A stretch of 64,000 nucleotides of DNA from positions 1 to 64,000 of IMG/VR virus record IMGVR_UViG_2684623237_000002; one strand, given 5' to 3'. Shown here one piece after another: positions 34,484 to 37,896 of this stretch (the stretch's first letter is position 1; each line of letters opens with the position of its first letter). This DNA comes from a virus. Lineage: Duplodnaviria > Caudoviricetes. The position numbers were made by a program, and so were the translations under genes. Below the pieces are notes generated by a model that worked only from the letters and a program-made list of their open reading frames with translations, was not told the origin of the DNA and made no database searches.

Positions 34484-35107
34484 ATGGAAAGGCCATACCC
34501 GCCCTCGTCACTACTTGAATTGGCCGAGATTTCCGACTTTGGTATCCGGTTGACCCCGGCGCCGGAGGTGTGGGAGTGGCTCCAAGCCGAGATACTCGCC
34601 GACACCGGCAGCATTCACAACGAAGACCATGCCCACCTACTGGATGCAGACATCCGGGTTATGTGGGCCTCGTCTAGCTTCGAAAAGCAGGGCAGAACGG
34701 TCTTGGGCCAGGCCGAACAGGTAGCGTTCCGCGCCGGTGGCTGGCAGAAAGCACGGATGGAGCAACAGATGCGTGATTGGTTCGGCGATGTGCCGGCCTT
34801 CATCATCACGCTGGCTGCCGACTATTGCGCCCAGTGCAGCGACCTTGAGTTCTGCGCCCTGATCGAACACGAGCTGTACCACCTGGCTCACGCGACTGAC
34901 AAGTACGGTCAACCAGCATTCACCCAAGACGGTGCACCGAAGATCAAGCTGCAGGGCCACGACGTCGAAGAGTTCGTCGGTGTCGTCCGCCGCTACGGTG
35001 CAAGCCCTGACGTTCAAGCGTTGGTGGATGCTGCAAACAGTCCTGCTGAGGTGGGGAAATTGAACATTGCGAGGGCCTGCGGAACCTGTCTGCTCAGATC
35101 GGCCTGA
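34484..35107 (+). CDS. Phage putative metallopeptidase
   Basis: EHELYH, HDVEEF. Confidence 0.8.
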   Translation: MERPYPPSSLLELAEISDFGIRLTPAPEVWEWLQAEILADTGSIHNEDHAHLLDADIRVMWASSSFEKQGRTVLGQAEQVAFRAGGWQKARMEQQMRDWFGDVPAFIITLAADYCAQCSDLEFCALIEHELYHLAHATDKYGQPAFTQDGAPKIKLQGHDVEEFVGVVRRYGASPDVQALVDAANSPAEVGKLNIARACGTCLLRSA

Positions 35108-35138
35108 CCCCTGACAGACCTAAGACGGAATTTACCCT

Positions 35139-35600
35139 ATGGCAGCCCTGAACAGTGAGGTGAAAGGCTTCATGGTTCAGGCCTTGGCGTGCTTCGACAC
35201 ACCTTCCCAGGTTGCAGCGGCTGTCCGAGAGGAATTCGGCATTGAGGTGACCCGTCAGCAGTGCGAGGCGCAAGACCCGACCAAGCGCGCCGGCCGAGAT
35301 CTGGCAAAGAAGTGGGTGACCCTTTTCCACGACACCCGTAAGCGGTTCCGTGAAGAGACAGCTGACATCCCGATCGCCAACCGCGCCTTCCGCCTCCGCG
35401 CCATGAATCGCTTCGTGGAGAAGGCCGAGACGATGAAGAACATCGGTCTGGCCATGCAGATCCTCGAACAGGCCGCGAAAGAAACCGGTGACATCTACGT
35501 CAACCGGGCACGGAAAGAAGAGGCTGGCGATGAACCGGTGATCCCGACCCGCATTCAGGTCGACGTGGTGGATGCGAGGAAGCCGAATGCCGAGCCTTAA
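35139..35600 (+). CDS. Terminase small subunit (DUF2280-like)
   Basis: VQALACFDTPSQV...QAAKE; precedes terL. Confidence 0.8.
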   Translation: MAALNSEVKGFMVQALACFDTPSQVAAAVREEFGIEVTRQQCEAQDPTKRAGRDLAKKWVTLFHDTRKRFREETADIPIANRAFRLRAMNRFVEKAETMKNIGLAMQILEQAAKETGDIYVNRARKEEAGDEPVIPTRIQVDVVDARKPNAEP

Positions 35601-37896
35601 CGTTCCGCAATCGCAGTTCCTCCTGTTACCGCACAAGTTTCGTGCATTCGTTGCCGGGTTCGGGTGCCTGCGAGGAAGCACCCTGGTTATGACTGAGTCT
35701 GGGCCTATGCCCATTCAGGAAATCGATCGGCCAATGCGCGTTCTATCGTGGTCGGCTGCGAATGATCGATTTGAGCTTGCTCTAAGTGGTGGCGCGTACC
35801 CAAAAGGTGCGGCGACGCTATTCCGAGTCGTGACGCAGCGAGGAGAATTTGTAGCAAGCGGACATCACCGCGTTCTCTGCGCTGACGGTAGCTATCGACG
35901 CGTGGATATGCTGGTCTCAGGTGAGATGGTATCTGCATCTTCGCAAAGCCTTCTTCAGACCAATTTGGCCGAAGTCCCGAAATCGTGGCACGCAGGTGAT
36001 CAGCATTCGAATCAAAGACTCGCAGATTCACTGGGTCGTTATGCAGATGAAGCCCGTCGATATGGTCAACAACTTCTGACGGAAGCAGGTATCGGCCAAT
36101 CTTCTGCTCGGCAATCAGCCGATGCTGGAACATCAAGCCAGTCTTCCTTGCTTGAGGGTGGTCGGCCGGAGCCTGGACTAGCGCATAGCCATCCAGGTCG
36201 ACAATTCTGCCTGCTTGGTAGCTGTGGTTCAGTTCGCCAAGCCGTCCTCCGCGACTCAGTCGATCTGCGTTGTGAGTCCTCAGGGTGTTCTGCACATGCT
36301 TGTCGCTGCACCCGAGAAGGCCAGCAATCTCTGCAGATGTCCGATTCTCTCCTGCAAGGGCAAGAATCTCCTGCTTCAGGCTGGATCGAGGCGCAGGCTT
36401 CGCTCGCTGCTTCAGCTTCAGGTTGTACCGCTCAATGCAGCGATAAACATGGCTGCGCTCGCACCCTGCAAGCTTCGCAACTTCTGATGCGCTGCGATCA
36501 GGCTGGGCAAGATCACAAATTTTCTGGTCTAGAGGCGTCAAATAATAGCTCCGCAATCGAATCCTGCTACATTTTAAGCGTTGTCGCACTCGATGTGGTA
36601 GAGACTTACTACGACCTGCAGGTGCTGGATAACAACTGCTACGTGACTGTCGATGGGGCTATCCATCACAACAGCGGCAAGACCTGGGTCGGATGCTCGG
36701 CACTGAGCAAGCACTTCATGGAGTGGCCCGGCGTTAACGCTGGCTACTTTGCACCGACTTACCCGCAGATCCGGGACATCTTCTATCCGACCATGGATGA
36801 GGTGGCCTACGACTGGGGGCTGAAGACCAAGATCAACCAGGCGAACCACGAAGTTCACATCTACAGCGGCCGGCAGTACCGCGGCACTGTGATTTGCAGG
36901 TCGATGGAGAAGCCGCAGACGATTGTCGGTTTCAAGATTGGTCACGCCCTGGTTGATGAGCTGGACGTGCTGACTGCCATCAAGGCTCAGCAGGCCTGGC
37001 GCAAGATCATTGCCCGTATGCGCTACAACCTTCCGGGGCTGAAGAACGGCGTGGACGTCACCACGACGCCAGAAGGCTTTAAGTTTGTCTTCCTGCAATT
37101 CGTGAAGCAGTTGCGCGACAAGCCGTCGCTCAAGGAAATGTACGGCCTGGTGCAGGCCAGCACGTTCGATAACGAGCTGAACCTGCCGGATGACTACATC
37201 GCCTCCCTGATGGAGTCGTATCCGCCGCAGCTGATCATGGCGTACCTCAAAGGCCAGTTCGTCAACCTGACGTCCGGCACGATCTACACGGCCTACGACC
37301 GCAAGCTCAACGGCTGCTTCGACACTGTGCTGCCCGGCGAGCCGCTGTTCATCGGGATGGACTTCAACGTAGGCAAGATGGCGGCGATTACCCATGTTAA
37401 GCGTGACCAGGGGCTGCCCAGGGCCGTGGATGAGCTGATCGACGGCTACGACACGCCCGACATGATCCGCCGCATCAAAGAGCGCTACTGGCAGCACGAC
37501 GGCAATGACTTCAAGAAGACCTGCGAGATCAGGATCTACCCAGATGCCTCGGGCGATTCGCGCAAGTCCGTGAACGCCAGTATCACCGATCTGGCCATGC
37601 TCAAGCAGGCCGGCTTTGCGGTCATCGCTCCCGCGGCAAACCCGCCGGTGAAGGACCGAATCAACGCAATGAACGCCGTCTTCTGCAATGCGCAGGGCGA
37701 GCGCCGCTACCTGGTCAATTCGCTCACCTGTCCGACCTACGCCGATGGCCTGGAACAGCAGGTGTGGGGCACGAACGGGGAGCCAGATAAAACCGCCGGC
37801 ATCGATCACGCGAACGACGCCGGCGGCTACTTCATCCACCGCGAGTACCCGATCATCAAACCGGTCACCGCTATCAAAATGGGATACGCCCGATGA
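35587..37896 (+). CDS. Terminase large subunit, intein-containing
   Basis: Walker A AGFG|SGKT split by the insert; LVDELD Walker B; TTTPEG; GMDFN nuclease motif. Confidence 0.95.
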   Translation: MPSLNVPQSQFLLLPHKFRAFVAGFGCLRGSTLVMTESGPMPIQEIDRPMRVLSWSAANDRFELALSGGAYPKGAATLFRVVTQRGEFVASGHHRVLCADGSYRRVDMLVSGEMVSASSQSLLQTNLAEVPKSWHAGDQHSNQRLADSLGRYADEARRYGQQLLTEAGIGQSSARQSADAGTSSQSSLLEGGRPEPGLAHSHPGRQFCLLGSCGSVRQAVLRDSVDLRCESSGCSAHACRCTREGQQSLQMSDSLLQGQESPASGWIEAQASLAASASGCTAQCSDKHGCARTLQASQLLMRCDQAGQDHKFSGLEASNNSSAIESCYILSVVALDVVETYYDLQVLDNNCYVTVDGAIHHNSGKTWVGCSALSKHFMEWPGVNAGYFAPTYPQIRDIFYPTMDEVAYDWGLKTKINQANHEVHIYSGRQYRGTVICRSMEKPQTIVGFKIGHALVDELDVLTAIKAQQAWRKIIARMRYNLPGLKNGVDVTTTPEGFKFVFLQFVKQLRDKPSLKEMYGLVQASTFDNELNLPDDYIASLMESYPPQLIMAYLKGQFVNLTSGTIYTAYDRKLNGCFDTVLPGEPLFIGMDFNVGKMAAITHVKRDQGLPRAVDELIDGYDTPDMIRRIKERYWQHDGNDFKKTCEIRIYPDASGDSRKSVNASITDLAMLKQAGFAVIAPAANPPVKDRINAMNAVFCNAQGERRYLVNSLTCPTYADGLEQQVWGTNGEPDKTAGIDHANDAGGYFIHREYPIIKPVTAIKMGYAR
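35665..36672 (+). mobile_element. 336-aa intein in the terL Walker A motif
   Basis: Block A CLRGSTLVMTESG, block B ASGHHRVL, block F TYYDLQVLDNNCYV, block G HHN followed by Ser+1. Confidence 0.93.
35705..36589 (-). CDS. Antisense HTH-HTH-HNH endonuclease nested in the intein (possible start TTG36556)
   Basis: SASEVAKLAGC and TSAEIAGLLGC HTHs; GELNHSY; HRLIAEQKIGRYL..SEVVDHIDG...NDPVNL HNH motif. Confidence 0.88.
   Translation of the reverse strand: MRQRLKCSRIRLRSYYLTPLDQKICDLAQPDRSASEVAKLAGCERSHVYRCIERYNLKLKQRAKPAPRSSLKQEILALAGENRTSAEIAGLLGCSDKHVQNTLRTHNADRLSRGGRLGELNHSYQAGRIVDLDGYALVQAPADHPQARKTGLMFQHRLIAEQKIGRYLLPSEVVDHIDGLHLHNDPVNLRVFDSNADHLRATISGLRPNWSEEGFAKMQIPSHLRPAYPRVDSYRQRRERGDVRLLQILLAASRLGIASPHLLGTRHHLEQAQIDHSQPTTIERALADRFPEWA

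What the first reader, a model, noticed from the sequence alone, without database searches (positions are those of the whole stretch)
35665..36672. Terminase intein whose homing endonuclease is encoded on the opposite strand
Seen: a 1008-nt in-frame insert splits the TerL Walker A motif (AGFG|SGKT). It has all the intein splicing motifs: Cys1, block B SxxH, block F YDLQV, terminal His-Asn and Ser+1. The central ~200 aa of the intein frame are S/Q/A/C-rich and show no LAGLIDADG or HNH motif. The minus strand over the same interval (35705..36589) is one open ORF with two HTH motifs and a typical HNH motif (HRLIAEQKIGRYLLPSEVVDHIDGLHLHNDPVNL). Established: intein homing endonucleases are normally in-frame domains of the intein. 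Inference: this is a mobile element in which the endonuclease is a separately translated antisense gene, while the sense frame must stay stop-free so TerL can be spliced. Homing could then be timed independently of late terL expression. I cannot confirm novelty without a literature search.
Basis: partly seen in the sequence, partly recalled or inferred. Interest (0 to 1): 0.95.

Follow-up and report, generated by a model that had tools for sequence, protein, structure and literature searches.

The report
Terminase intein with antisense HNH gene
A prophage DNA-packaging gene is interrupted in its ATP-binding loop by a self-splicing intein whose mobility nuclease is a separate gene on the opposite DNA strand. 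This is a widespread HNH version of a rare layout already described for other nucleases.

Summary
TerL (35572-37896, +) carries a 336-codon insert (35665-36672) between AGFG and SGKT. The insert has Cys1, a block-B His, terminal His-Asn and Ser+1. An HNH_3 gene with two HTH motifs lies antisense within it.

Both frames are kept open by selection. Synonymous shuffling gave 0 of 500 open frames in either direction. 96 of 99 related loci show the same layout.

Codon-position variability shows three regimes:
- ordinary Hint coding at both intein ends;
- HNH-only coding in the centre, where AlphaFold predicts disorder in the sense product;
- true two-strand coding over about 78 codons, where the HNH C-tail overlaps the Hint N-domain.

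The element is mobile. The 80 nearest TerL alleles all lack it, and they use TCN rather than AGC for the junction Ser. Related HNH genes also sit in unrelated TerL families.

Antisense LAGLIDADG and VSR-like endonucleases in inteins are already published. I found no paper on an antisense HNH. Expression, splicing and cleavage remain untested.

This scan had already noted the same layout on other DNA: 61 findings in at least 47 genomes.

The parts
35572..35664 (+). TerL N-extein, 31 aa, ending AFVAGFG (first half of the Walker A loop)
   Evidence: The 80 intein-free relatives end this segment with the same ...AFVAGFG directly before SGKT.
35665..36672 (+). Class-1-type intein, 336 aa (Cys1 ... 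His-Asn), inserted between G and S of GxxxxGK[ST]
   Evidence: C1, H68, D317, H335 and N336 are invariant in 35 sequences. The AlphaFold Hint fold matches mini-inteins at E 1.5e-6 and prob 1.00.
35665..35940 (+). Hint N-terminal splicing domain (intein aa 1-92, blocks A and B)
   Evidence: pLDDT 92-98. Conserved in alignment A2.
35708..35940 (.). Two-strand dual-coding zone: the Hint N-domain (+) overlaps the HNH C-terminal helical domain (-)
   Evidence: Entropy at sense positions 1/2/3 is 0.73/0.81/0.88 here. In the non-overlapped Hint parts, position 3 is 1.70 and 1.40. The HNH C-tail is predicted helical with pLDDT 72-89.
36100..36540 (+). Sense-frame linker (intein aa 146-292), with no amino-acid-level constraint; it is the mirror of the HNH gene
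   Evidence: pLDDT is below 50 over residues 146-292. Sense codon position 2 is the most variable, at 1.64. No Pfam or PHROG family matches.
36553..36672 (+). Hint C-terminal splicing domain (intein aa 297-336, blocks F and G, ...YYDLQV...IHHN)
   Evidence: pLDDT 93-98. Ordinary coding signature of 0.87/0.61/1.40.
36673..37896 (+). TerL C-extein beginning SGKT (rest of Walker A, ATPase and nuclease domains)
   Evidence: Terminase_6N and Terminase_6C. 89-99% identical to 80 intein-free alleles.
35705..36541 (-). HNH homing-endonuclease gene, 278 aa from TTG 36541, stop at 35705-35707. The open frame also allows GTG 36589 (294 aa).
   Evidence: HNH_3, HTH_29, HTH_23 and phrog_10730. Start column shared with ATG in L004, L005 and L011. 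Mean pLDDT 82.2.
36549..36552 (-). Candidate Shine-Dalgarno GGAG, 7 nt before TTG 36541
   Evidence: GGAG, GGAGG or AGGAG stands in the 18 nt shown before the chosen start in most of the 29 family members printed.
36275..36541 (-). Two tandem helix-turn-helix modules (HNH aa 1-40 and 53-89); the first is a clade-specific duplication
   Evidence: Internal alignment score 69, against a shuffle mean of 19 and maximum of 33. One-HTH relatives appear in A1 and A3.
35975..36244 (-). HNH catalytic core (aa 100-189), I-HmuI-like
   Evidence: VIA-align top hit is 1u3e_M: Z 6.7, rmsd 3.9, 74 aligned, 26% identity. H140, D159, H160, H167, N168, N172 and H182 are invariant in 30 sequences.

Best explanation
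This is a two-strand selfish element in the large terminase gene of a Pseudomonas-type prophage.

On the + strand, a contiguous class-1-type intein interrupts the Walker A loop of TerL. To give an active packaging ATPase, it must excise itself from the 774-aa precursor, with Cys1 and Ser+1 as nucleophiles and cyclisation of the terminal Asn.

On the - strand, inside the intein, sits an independent gene with its own Shine-Dalgarno sequence and start codon. It encodes an I-HmuI-like HNH endonuclease with two N-terminal HTH modules and a C-terminal helical domain.

The nuclease most likely nicks or cuts intein-free terL alleles at the P-loop codons in a co-resident phage or prophage. Repair from the intein-bearing copy then copies in the intein, the HNH gene and a few flanking bases. 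That is homing.

Because the nuclease lies antisense, the sense frame across it carries no useful protein information. It is still kept free of stop codons so that the precursor can be made and spliced. The last 78 or so HNH codons overlap the essential Hint N-domain, and there both strands are under amino-acid-level selection.

Shown here:
- the architecture;
- selection on both frames;
- conserved translation signals;
- presence/absence polymorphism;
- transfer between TerL families.

Inferred: antisense transcription and translation, splicing, the cleavage site, and whether the enzyme nicks or cuts.
For: Layout and conservation:
- Layout in the window.
- The same layout is in 96 of 99 loci found with the HNH protein. 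These include Pectobacterium phages and Pseudoalteromonas phage PHS3, and genomes of Enterobacter, Acinetobacter and others.
- 272 tblastn-confirmed relatives exist in IMG/VR, of which 80 were kept.

Both frames maintained:
- Across 59 unique inteins, observed sense stops are 0, and the median of the per-locus mean stop counts after HNH-synonymous shuffling is 7.94. 54 of the 59 have 0 of 500 shuffles open. The highest open fraction is 0.13, in the shortened L040.
- The converse shuffle gives a median of 5.5 stops and a highest open fraction of 0.066.

Codon-position entropy (37 representatives below 85% identity):
- HNH core, HNH positions 1/2/3: 0.75/0.64/1.45.
- Linker, sense positions: 0.97/1.64/0.83.
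- Overlap zone: 0.73/0.81/0.88.
- Non-overlapped Hint ends: position 3 is 1.70 and 1.40.

Translation signals and structure:
- Conserved start column and SD.
- The sense product folds as a Hint domain with residues 146-292 below pLDDT 50. The HNH product has mean pLDDT 82.2 and an I-HmuI-like core.

Mobility:
- 80 of 80 nearest TerL alleles (89-99% identical) lack the insert, as do Pseudomonas phage Medea1 and record MT838239.
- The junction Ser is AGY in the window and the 8 clade members printed. It is TCN in 80 of 80 empty alleles. The preceding Gly is GGG here and never GGG in the empties. TCN and AGY are not linked by single synonymous steps, so the flank most likely arrived with the intein.
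- 693 of 1595 locus pairs with alignable HNH have no alignable C-extein. The window and L004 share 93% HNH identity but 81% extein identity.
Against: - There is no direct evidence for an antisense transcript or protein, for splicing or for cleavage.
- The consensus scan found no sigma-70-type promoter on either strand in 35400-37200.
- Pfam Intein_splicing scores 19 bits, below its gathering score of 35.8.
- The Foldseek match of the whole HNH model is weak (best E 0.035), and the I-HmuI match is modest at Z 6.7.
- Loci were collected with the HNH protein as query, so elements with a lost HNH are under-sampled.
- A search with the Hint N-domain returned only 14 proteins, of 656-770 aa, and no mini-intein form. 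The order of events, intein first and HNH second, is therefore not shown.
- The entropy and incongruence analyses do not correct for phylogeny.
Confidence: 0.8

Rival explanations
1. The HNH protein is functional, but it is not the homing enzyme of this intein. It could be a packaging-associated HNH that works with the terminase, or a free-standing nuclease that targets some other site or competing phages and merely lodges in the intein.
For: HNH genes next to terminase genes are common in phages (abstract of PMC3592412, seen in the search listings). Cleavage specificity is untested here. Weaker relatives of the HNH core are free-standing genes elsewhere in phage genomes (rows H10-H30).
Against: The HNH gene and the intein are always gained or lost together. 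80 of 80 nearest TerL alleles lack both, so the nuclease is not needed for packaging. It belongs to the HNH_3 / I-HmuI homing type and carries HTH modules. It travels with the intein into unrelated TerL families, always at the same P-loop position.
Confidence: 0.1
2. The antisense ORF is an untranslated relic or a chance shadow frame of a GC-rich gene. On this view the element is simply an intein with a degenerate centre.
For: Long shadow ORFs exist in this window, for example 421 aa antisense to the TerL C-extein. No promoter consensus was found.
Against: The ORF has significant family matches (phrog_10730, E 7.7e-54; HNH_3 above gathering). Its third codon positions are the most variable, and 37 columns, among them the HNH-motif His, Asp and Asn residues (H140, D159, H160, H167, N168, N172, H182), are invariant. 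The frame stays open in loci of 40-45% GC. Start codon and SD are conserved. Its model is confident, at mean pLDDT 82.2.
Confidence: 0.03
3. In this particular prophage the intein no longer splices, so terL is dead and the prophage is defective. The open frames would then be inherited from a recently active ancestor.
For: Splicing is untested. Intein_splicing scores below its gathering score. The record is a provirus, not a plaque-forming isolate.
Against: All invariant splicing residues (C1, H68, D317, H335, N336, Ser+1) are present. The Hint domains are modelled at pLDDT above 90. Plaque-forming phages (Taid, Ymer, PHS3) carry the same layout, so it is compatible with packaging.
Confidence: 0.05
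4. This is a fractured gene: terL is split into two genes by a free-standing endonuclease and rejoined by a split intein acting in trans.
For: This arrangement is known for phage genes, including a terminase (PMC2677866, passages read). The GenBank annotation of PHS3 shows a short terL plus a separate HNH gene.
Against: The sense frame is continuous across the insert in the window and in 96 of 99 loci. PHS3 itself has a 708-aa open frame. That continuity is far beyond chance.
Confidence: 0.01

Closest known systems
Non-canonical actinobacteriophage inteins with an anti-sense LAGLIDADG or anti-sense VSR-like homing endonuclease (Gosselin, Arsenault & Gogarten, bioRxiv 10.1101/2025.01.02.630785; abstract and sections 8 and 15 read)
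   Same: The endonuclease ORF lies on the antisense strand inside a contiguous intein, and the sense frame is kept open. Some of these inteins are in TerL. There is evidence of continuing horizontal transfer. The authors propose invasion of an intein by a free-standing endonuclease.
   Different: The nuclease family here is HNH (HNH_3, I-HmuI-like) with HTH modules. The preprint lists HNH only as an in-frame domain. The hosts here are proteobacterial and environmental phages, not actinophages. [quoted passage not shown] I could not see its supplementary tables.
Ssp DnaX and Chloroflexus SpoVR-like inteins with a LAGLIDADG ORF in another frame or strand (Gorbalenya 1998 and Gogarten 2002, known to me only through the citing preprints; bioRxiv 10.64898/2026.09.14.751524, abstract and section 17 read)
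   Same: The intein's endonuclease is not in the intein reading frame. Frame-specific selection shows that the endonuclease frame is the constrained one in the overlap.
   Different: The nuclease family, host gene and organisms all differ. The 2026 preprint describes the dnaX case as a +2 frame on the same strand, whereas the 2025 preprint calls it anti-sense. I could not read the 1998 paper.
[quoted passage not shown]
   Same: An HNH endonuclease is encoded in another frame of an in-frame, stop-free insertion in a phage gene, and the element is actively homing.
   Different: There the HNH is on the same strand, and no intein or other splicing domain was detectable. Here the insert is a complete Hint-fold intein and the HNH is antisense.
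I-HmuI, the nicking HNH homing endonuclease of a Bacillus phage group I intron (PDB 1u3e)
   Same: It is the best structural match to the catalytic core: Z 6.7, rmsd 3.9, 74 residues, 26% identity. Both belong to Pfam family HNH_3.
   Different: I-HmuI is intron-encoded on the sense strand and has a different arrangement of DNA-binding modules. That I-HmuI nicks is recalled, not from a call. Nicking versus cutting is untested here.
TerL P-loop inteins of mycobacteriophages and prophages (PMC5050341, search listing only; PMC4760082, passages: 22 inteins in Terminase_6 of Firmicutes, Fusobacteria and Proteobacteria)
   Same: The intein sits in the large terminase, a known intein hot spot.
   Different: Those surveys describe in-frame endonuclease domains or mini-inteins. 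The passages I read do not mention an antisense HNH gene.

Membership tests
Class 1 intein (Hint domain) | In-frame insertion at a conserved site of a host protein, absent from close homologues | tested here: met
   The insert splits AGFG|SGKT. 80 of 80 nearest TerL alleles read AFVAGFG-SGKT without it.
Class 1 intein (Hint domain) | Cys/Ser at position 1, block B His, penultimate His and terminal Asn, Cys/Ser/Thr at +1 | tested here: met
   C1, H68, D317, H335 and N336 are invariant in 35 sequences. The +1 residue is Ser or Thr in 96 of 99 loci.
Class 1 intein (Hint domain) | Hint fold | tested here: met
   AlphaFold pLDDT is above 90 for residues 1-95 and 298-336. Foldseek matches NpuDnaB, Ssp DnaB, DnaX and RecA mini-inteins at E 1.5e-6 to 1e-4 with prob 1.00.
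Class 1 intein (Hint domain) | Pfam Intein_splicing (PF14890) above its gathering score | tested here: not met
   The score is 19 bits against 35.8. Four of the 14 relatives carry a precomputed PF14890 hit. I give this HMM shortfall less weight than the residue and fold evidence.
Class 1 intein (Hint domain) | Protein splicing activity | not testable with these tools
   Needs an expression assay.
HNH homing endonuclease (Pfam HNH_3, I-HmuI type) | HNH_3 profile above gathering score and conserved catalytic His/Asn | tested here: met
   The score is 26.9 bits against 24.8. H140, D159, H160, H167, N168, N172 and H182 are invariant in 30 sequences.
HNH homing endonuclease (Pfam HNH_3, I-HmuI type) | beta-beta-alpha core resembling a solved homing HNH enzyme | tested here: inconclusive
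   The top VIA hit is 1u3e_M, but only at Z 6.7. Foldseek gives E 0.38 with prob 0.97 for the same chain.
HNH homing endonuclease (Pfam HNH_3, I-HmuI type) | Site-specific cleavage of the element-free allele, promoting its own spread | not testable with these tools
   Only indirect support: presence/absence polymorphism, flank co-conversion and extein switching.
Non-canonical inteins with an antisense-encoded homing endonuclease | Complete endonuclease ORF on the antisense strand within a contiguous intein whose sense frame is open | tested here: met
Non-canonical inteins with an antisense-encoded homing endonuclease | Endonuclease of the LAGLIDADG or VSR-like family (the published cases) | tested here: not met
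   It is an HNH_3 enzyme. No LAGLIDADG or Vsr family matched on either strand.
Non-canonical inteins with an antisense-encoded homing endonuclease | Second ORF lies between the splicing blocks (stated as typical in the preprint) | tested here: not met
   The HNH stop lies 19-43 nt inside the intein 5' end in 58 of the 59 unique inteins (1 nt in L071), so the ORF overlaps blocks A and B.
Fractured gene with split intein and free-standing endonuclease (Dassa et al. 2009) | Host gene broken into two ORFs by the endonuclease gene | tested here: not met
   A single 774-aa ORF here, and continuous frames in 96 of 99 loci.

The most novel reading that the evidence does not exclude
The family is an undescribed, widespread class of 'interlocked' two-strand selfish elements. 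An HNH gene invaded the linker of a TerL P-loop intein in antisense. In one large lineage it then extended its C-terminal DNA-binding domain by overprinting onto the essential Hint N-domain. More distant relatives (L093-L097) have an HNH that stops 148-244 nt short of the intein start, and may represent the earlier state.

The overlap would tie the nuclease to the splicing domain, so that most mutations in one damage the other. Antisense placement would let the nuclease be expressed apart from the late packaging operon, and the antisense RNA might also affect terL.
Probability: 0.3. Interest if true: 0.7.

Novelty: new variant of a known kind. Interest (0 to 1): 0.55.

Why it matters
It adds the HNH family to the short list of intein endonucleases encoded on the opposite strand, which so far holds LAGLIDADG and VSR-like enzymes.

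It also shows that this is not a curiosity. There are at least 272 confirmed relatives in IMG/VR, plus isolates of Pectobacterium and Pseudoalteromonas phages and prophages of several phyla.

It gives an unusually clean natural example of bidirectional dual coding. About 78 codons are under amino-acid selection on both strands, flanked by internal controls within the same element.

It supports the 'splicing domain first, endonuclease invades later' view of intein evolution.

In practice, gene callers keep only one strand. Taid and Ymer list a 754-aa 'hypothetical protein' and no HNH. PHS3 lists the HNH and a truncated terL. These terminases and nucleases are therefore systematically mis-annotated.

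Tried and rejected
RNA evidence. The look-up of sequencing runs listed no holder on record as RNA. I laid two raw RNA runs of the same species label (X23, X24) and they gave 0 reads. That is no test, because the organism or prophage may not be in them. X1 and X5 are contigs and cannot show strand. None of this bears on expression.

Promoter and terminator consensus scan of 35400-37200: 0 promoters and 0 terminators. A TAAAAT at about 36571-36576 on the minus strand (TACAAT in L004) is only a candidate. It lies in conserved Hint coding sequence, so its conservation says nothing.

Search for a mini-intein or in-frame-endonuclease ancestor, using the Hint N-domain. It gave 14 proteins of 656-770 aa and none of mini-intein size. 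The search is word-limited, so this is not evidence of absence.

Pfam on the HNH C-tail alone (35708-35950, minus strand): no family.

Foldseek on the whole HNH model: no match with E <= 0.001. The model is multi-domain with pTM 0.39.

Literature. Seven searches found no paper describing an antisense HNH gene in an intein. PMC6669764 came up twice but is irrelevant. The Gorbalenya 1998 paper is not held, and I know it and Gogarten 2002 only as cited.

Rejected readings: chance shadow ORF, fractured gene, packaging HNH (see rival explanations).

My first measure of HNH frame length (column HNHopen) started at the tblastn match start. It wrongly suggested broken HNH frames in L001, L016 and L017. 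Re-measured within the intein, they are intact at 242, 281 and 281 codons.

My N-junction regex missed 22 of 96 loci. I re-examined 13 of these by a simpler rule (L040, also run, was already among the 59); the other 9 were not analysed further. L040 was left out of the entropy alignments.


Full report
**1. What is there**

The window's + strand has a 774-aa ORF (35572..37896). Its ends match Terminase_6N (E 6.9e-25) and Terminase_6C, and its product reads ...AFVAGFG|CLRGSTLV ... DGAIHHN|SGKTWVG....

The neighbouring genes fit a packaging module. Upstream is a DUF2280 protein, and downstream a DUF4055 portal-type protein. The record is a 72-kb provirus. Its nearest cultured relatives are temperate Pseudomonas phages (Medea1, phiAH14a, PseuP_222), which match only outside the insert.

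On the minus strand, 35705..36589 is one ORF of 294 aa. It matches HNH_3 (26.9 bits, gathering 24.8), HTH_29, HTH_23 and phrog_10730 'HNH endonuclease' (E 7.7e-54, residues 65-292). The sense product of the insert matches no endonuclease family, and matches Intein_splicing only weakly (19 bits, below 35.8).

**2. Is it more than chance?**

Long shadow ORFs occur in this GC-rich DNA; one of 421 aa lies antisense to the C-extein. I therefore tested openness directly.
- Shuffling synonymous codons of the HNH ORF gives a mean of 8.33 stops in the sense frame, and 0 of 500 shuffles stay open.
- Shuffling synonymous codons of the sense frame gives 7.02 stops in the HNH frame, again with 0 of 500 open.

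The same holds for 59 unique related inteins of 40-58% GC. The medians are 7.94 and 5.5 expected stops. 54 of the 59 have 0 of 500 open. The worst case, at 0.13, is the shortened L040.

**3. Relatives**

tblastn with the HNH protein found the same gene at 41-50% identity in eight Pectobacterium/Dickeya phages and in Pseudoalteromonas phage PHS3. In all three that I opened, it lies antisense inside a continuous 708-754-aa terminase frame.

A pattern search confirmed 272 relatives in IMG/VR, of which 80 were kept, and 15 in GTDB genomes (Enterobacter, Acinetobacter, Paracoccaceae, Phycisphaerae and others).

Of 99 loci including the window, 96 have an opposite-strand frame that is open across the whole HNH match and ends the insert with H-N|[S/T]-G-K-[S/T]. 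Two of the exceptions are cut by contig ends (L014, L063). One is a remote hit to the HNH core only (L098).

The N-junction is always G|C after the first glycines of the P-loop, although the exteins differ (AGFG, MGPVG, GGLG, GPFG...). The HNH always occupies the same relative frame: HNH codon position 1 faces sense position 1, position 2 faces sense 3, and position 3 faces sense 2. Its stop lies 19-43 nt inside the intein's first codon in 58 of the 59 unique inteins, and 1 nt inside in L071.

**4. Which frame is selected where**

I used 37 representatives below 85% HNH identity and measured nucleotide entropy by codon position. Three regimes appear, with values given for sense positions 1/2/3:
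- The two intein ends that the HNH does not cover show ordinary coding: 0.84/0.59/1.70 for intein codons 1-13, and 0.87/0.61/1.40 for codons 297-336.
- The centre (codons 146-292) has its most variable site at sense position 2 (0.97/1.64/0.83), which is the HNH wobble position. Here the HNH frame is under amino-acid selection, and the sense frame is only kept stop-free.
- Codons 15-92, the Hint N-domain, are overlapped by the HNH C-terminal tail. There all three positions are held down (0.73/0.81/0.88). The sense wobble positions are constrained because they are HNH second positions.

This confirms true two-strand coding over about 78 codons. The analysis is not corrected for phylogeny.

**5. 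Signs that the HNH is a real, translated gene**

In the window's clade, an ATG (L004, L005, L011) or TTG (the window and six others) stands in one column, followed by T-P-L-D, with GGAG or AGGAG 7 nt upstream. This puts the likely start at TTG 36541, giving 278 aa, rather than GTG 36589.

In the one-HTH relatives, the ORF begins with ATG at a conserved M-N-E/D-... position, usually after in-frame stops, and most have GGAG, GGAGG or AGGAG in the 18 nt before the start. In 30 aligned proteins, 37 columns are invariant, among them H140, D159, H160, H167, N168, N172 and H182 of the HNH motif.

**6. Predicted structures**

The sense product folds as a Hint domain, with pLDDT above 90 for residues 1-95 and 298-336. 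Residues 146-292 are below 50. Foldseek matches mini-inteins (NpuDnaB, Ssp DnaB, DnaX, RecA) at E 1.5e-6 to 1e-4 with prob 1.00.

The antisense product is confidently modelled (mean pLDDT 82.2) as four parts: two HTH modules, a beta-beta-alpha core, and a C-terminal helical domain at residues 196-273 with pLDDT 72-89. The core's best structural match is the homing enzyme I-HmuI: Z 6.7, rmsd 3.9, 74 residues, 26% identity. That match is modest, and whole-model Foldseek was uninformative.

A sense-frame helix at 113-140, with the conserved island Y-A-x-x-A-R-x-Y-G-Q-Q-L-L, is the mirror image of the invariant HNH motif. It need not mean anything for the intein.

**7. Mobility**

The 80 best TerL C-extein relatives in IMG/VR, 89-99% identical, all lack the insert and read AFVAGFG-SGKT.

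In those 80, the junction Ser codon is TCN (TCA 37, TCC 21, TCG 12, TCT 10) and the preceding Gly is GGC, GGT or GGA. The window has GGG|AGC, and the window and the 8 members of its intein clade that were printed have AGY. TCN and AGY are not connected by single synonymous changes, so the junction codons most likely came in with the intein by co-conversion.

Across 57 loci, 693 of the 1595 pairs with alignable HNH have no alignable C-extein. Conversely, exteins 82-94% identical carry HNH genes only 52-70% identical. The window and L004 share 93% HNH identity but 81% extein identity. The intein and HNH gene thus move as a unit between terminase families, always into the P-loop.

**8. Mechanism**

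The best reading is a homing intein whose nuclease is an independent antisense gene. The sense frame across the nuclease gene is a stop-free spacer, needed only so that the precursor can be made and spliced.

Shown here: the architecture, selection on both frames, translation signals, polymorphism, and extein switching. Inferred: antisense transcription, translation, splicing, the cleavage site, and nick versus cut.

I found no usable RNA data and no consensus promoter.

**9. Comparison with what is known**

Antisense endonuclease ORFs in inteins are in print. The sources are:
- anti-sense LAGLIDADG (Gorbalenya 1998 and Gogarten 2002, as cited);
- a 2026 preprint that treats the dnaX case with frame-specific selection analysis;
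- an out-of-frame HNH described in a phage methylase that has no intein (PMC11855218, abstract).

The 2025 preprint lists HNH only as an in-frame domain, and says that the second ORFs typically lie outside the splicing domain. Seven full-text searches found no description of an antisense HNH in an intein. I could not see supplements or the 1998 paper.

I therefore class this as a new variant of a known kind. The nuclease family is new for this layout, the distribution is much wider, and there is a two-strand overlap with the essential Hint N-domain.

**10. Earlier notes of this scan**

After reaching this reading, I found that the scan had already noted the same layout on other DNA: 61 findings in at least 47 genomes. 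The follow-up verdicts match mine. They are not independent evidence. My scores rest on the calls above.

Noticed in passing
window 36275-36541 (minus strand): The window's HNH has two HTH modules that are a tandem duplication. Local alignment score is 69, against a shuffle mean of 19 and maximum of 33. Most relatives have one module. The duplication makes this clade's intein 336 aa rather than about 290, and it is stop-free on both strands.
   Followed up: partly
L093-L097 (GTDB MAG contigs): More distant TerL P-loop inteins have a different Hint N-domain and also carry an antisense HNH in the same relative frame. Their HNH frame ends 148-244 nt before the intein start, so it does not cover most of the Hint N-domain. 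This may be the state before the C-tail overlap arose.
   Followed up: partly
L040 (IMG/VR contig): This is a shortened member: the intein is 224 aa and the HNH frame 170 codons, lacking the HTH region. The sense frame is still open and the junctions intact. It may be a decay intermediate towards a mini-intein.
   Followed up: no
window 36792-36954: In contigs of runs X1 and X5, the whole intein and the first 119 nt of the C-extein are identical to the window. All 10 listed differences fall at 36792-36954. This looks like a recombination or co-conversion boundary downstream of the intein.
   Followed up: no
L001 1793-4057, L002 1583-3847, L003 1715-3841: The GenBank annotation misses the layout. 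Taid and Ymer list a 754-aa 'hypothetical protein' and no HNH. PHS3 lists the HNH and a truncated 'terminase large subunit' starting after the intein, although a 708-aa frame is open.
   Followed up: yes
L076 (IMG/VR contig): The TerL frame stops 111 codons after the intein, although L075 and L078 have the same intein with a 712-aa frame. This is either an assembly error or a broken terL.
   Followed up: no
window 36001-36084 (intein aa 113-140): The sense frame has a conserved island (Y-A-x-x-A-R-x-Y-G-Q-Q-L-L) and a predicted long helix with pLDDT 77-88. It lies opposite the invariant HNH catalytic motif, so the conservation is probably a mirror effect rather than a feature of the intein.
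   Followed up: partly
window 34484-35600: Upstream of terL are a putative phage metallopeptidase (PF18894) and a DUF2280 protein in the position of a small terminase subunit. Other first-reader notes on this window (fluoride riboswitch-crcB unit, LlpA bacteriocin, Com leader repeats) were not examined.
   Followed up: no
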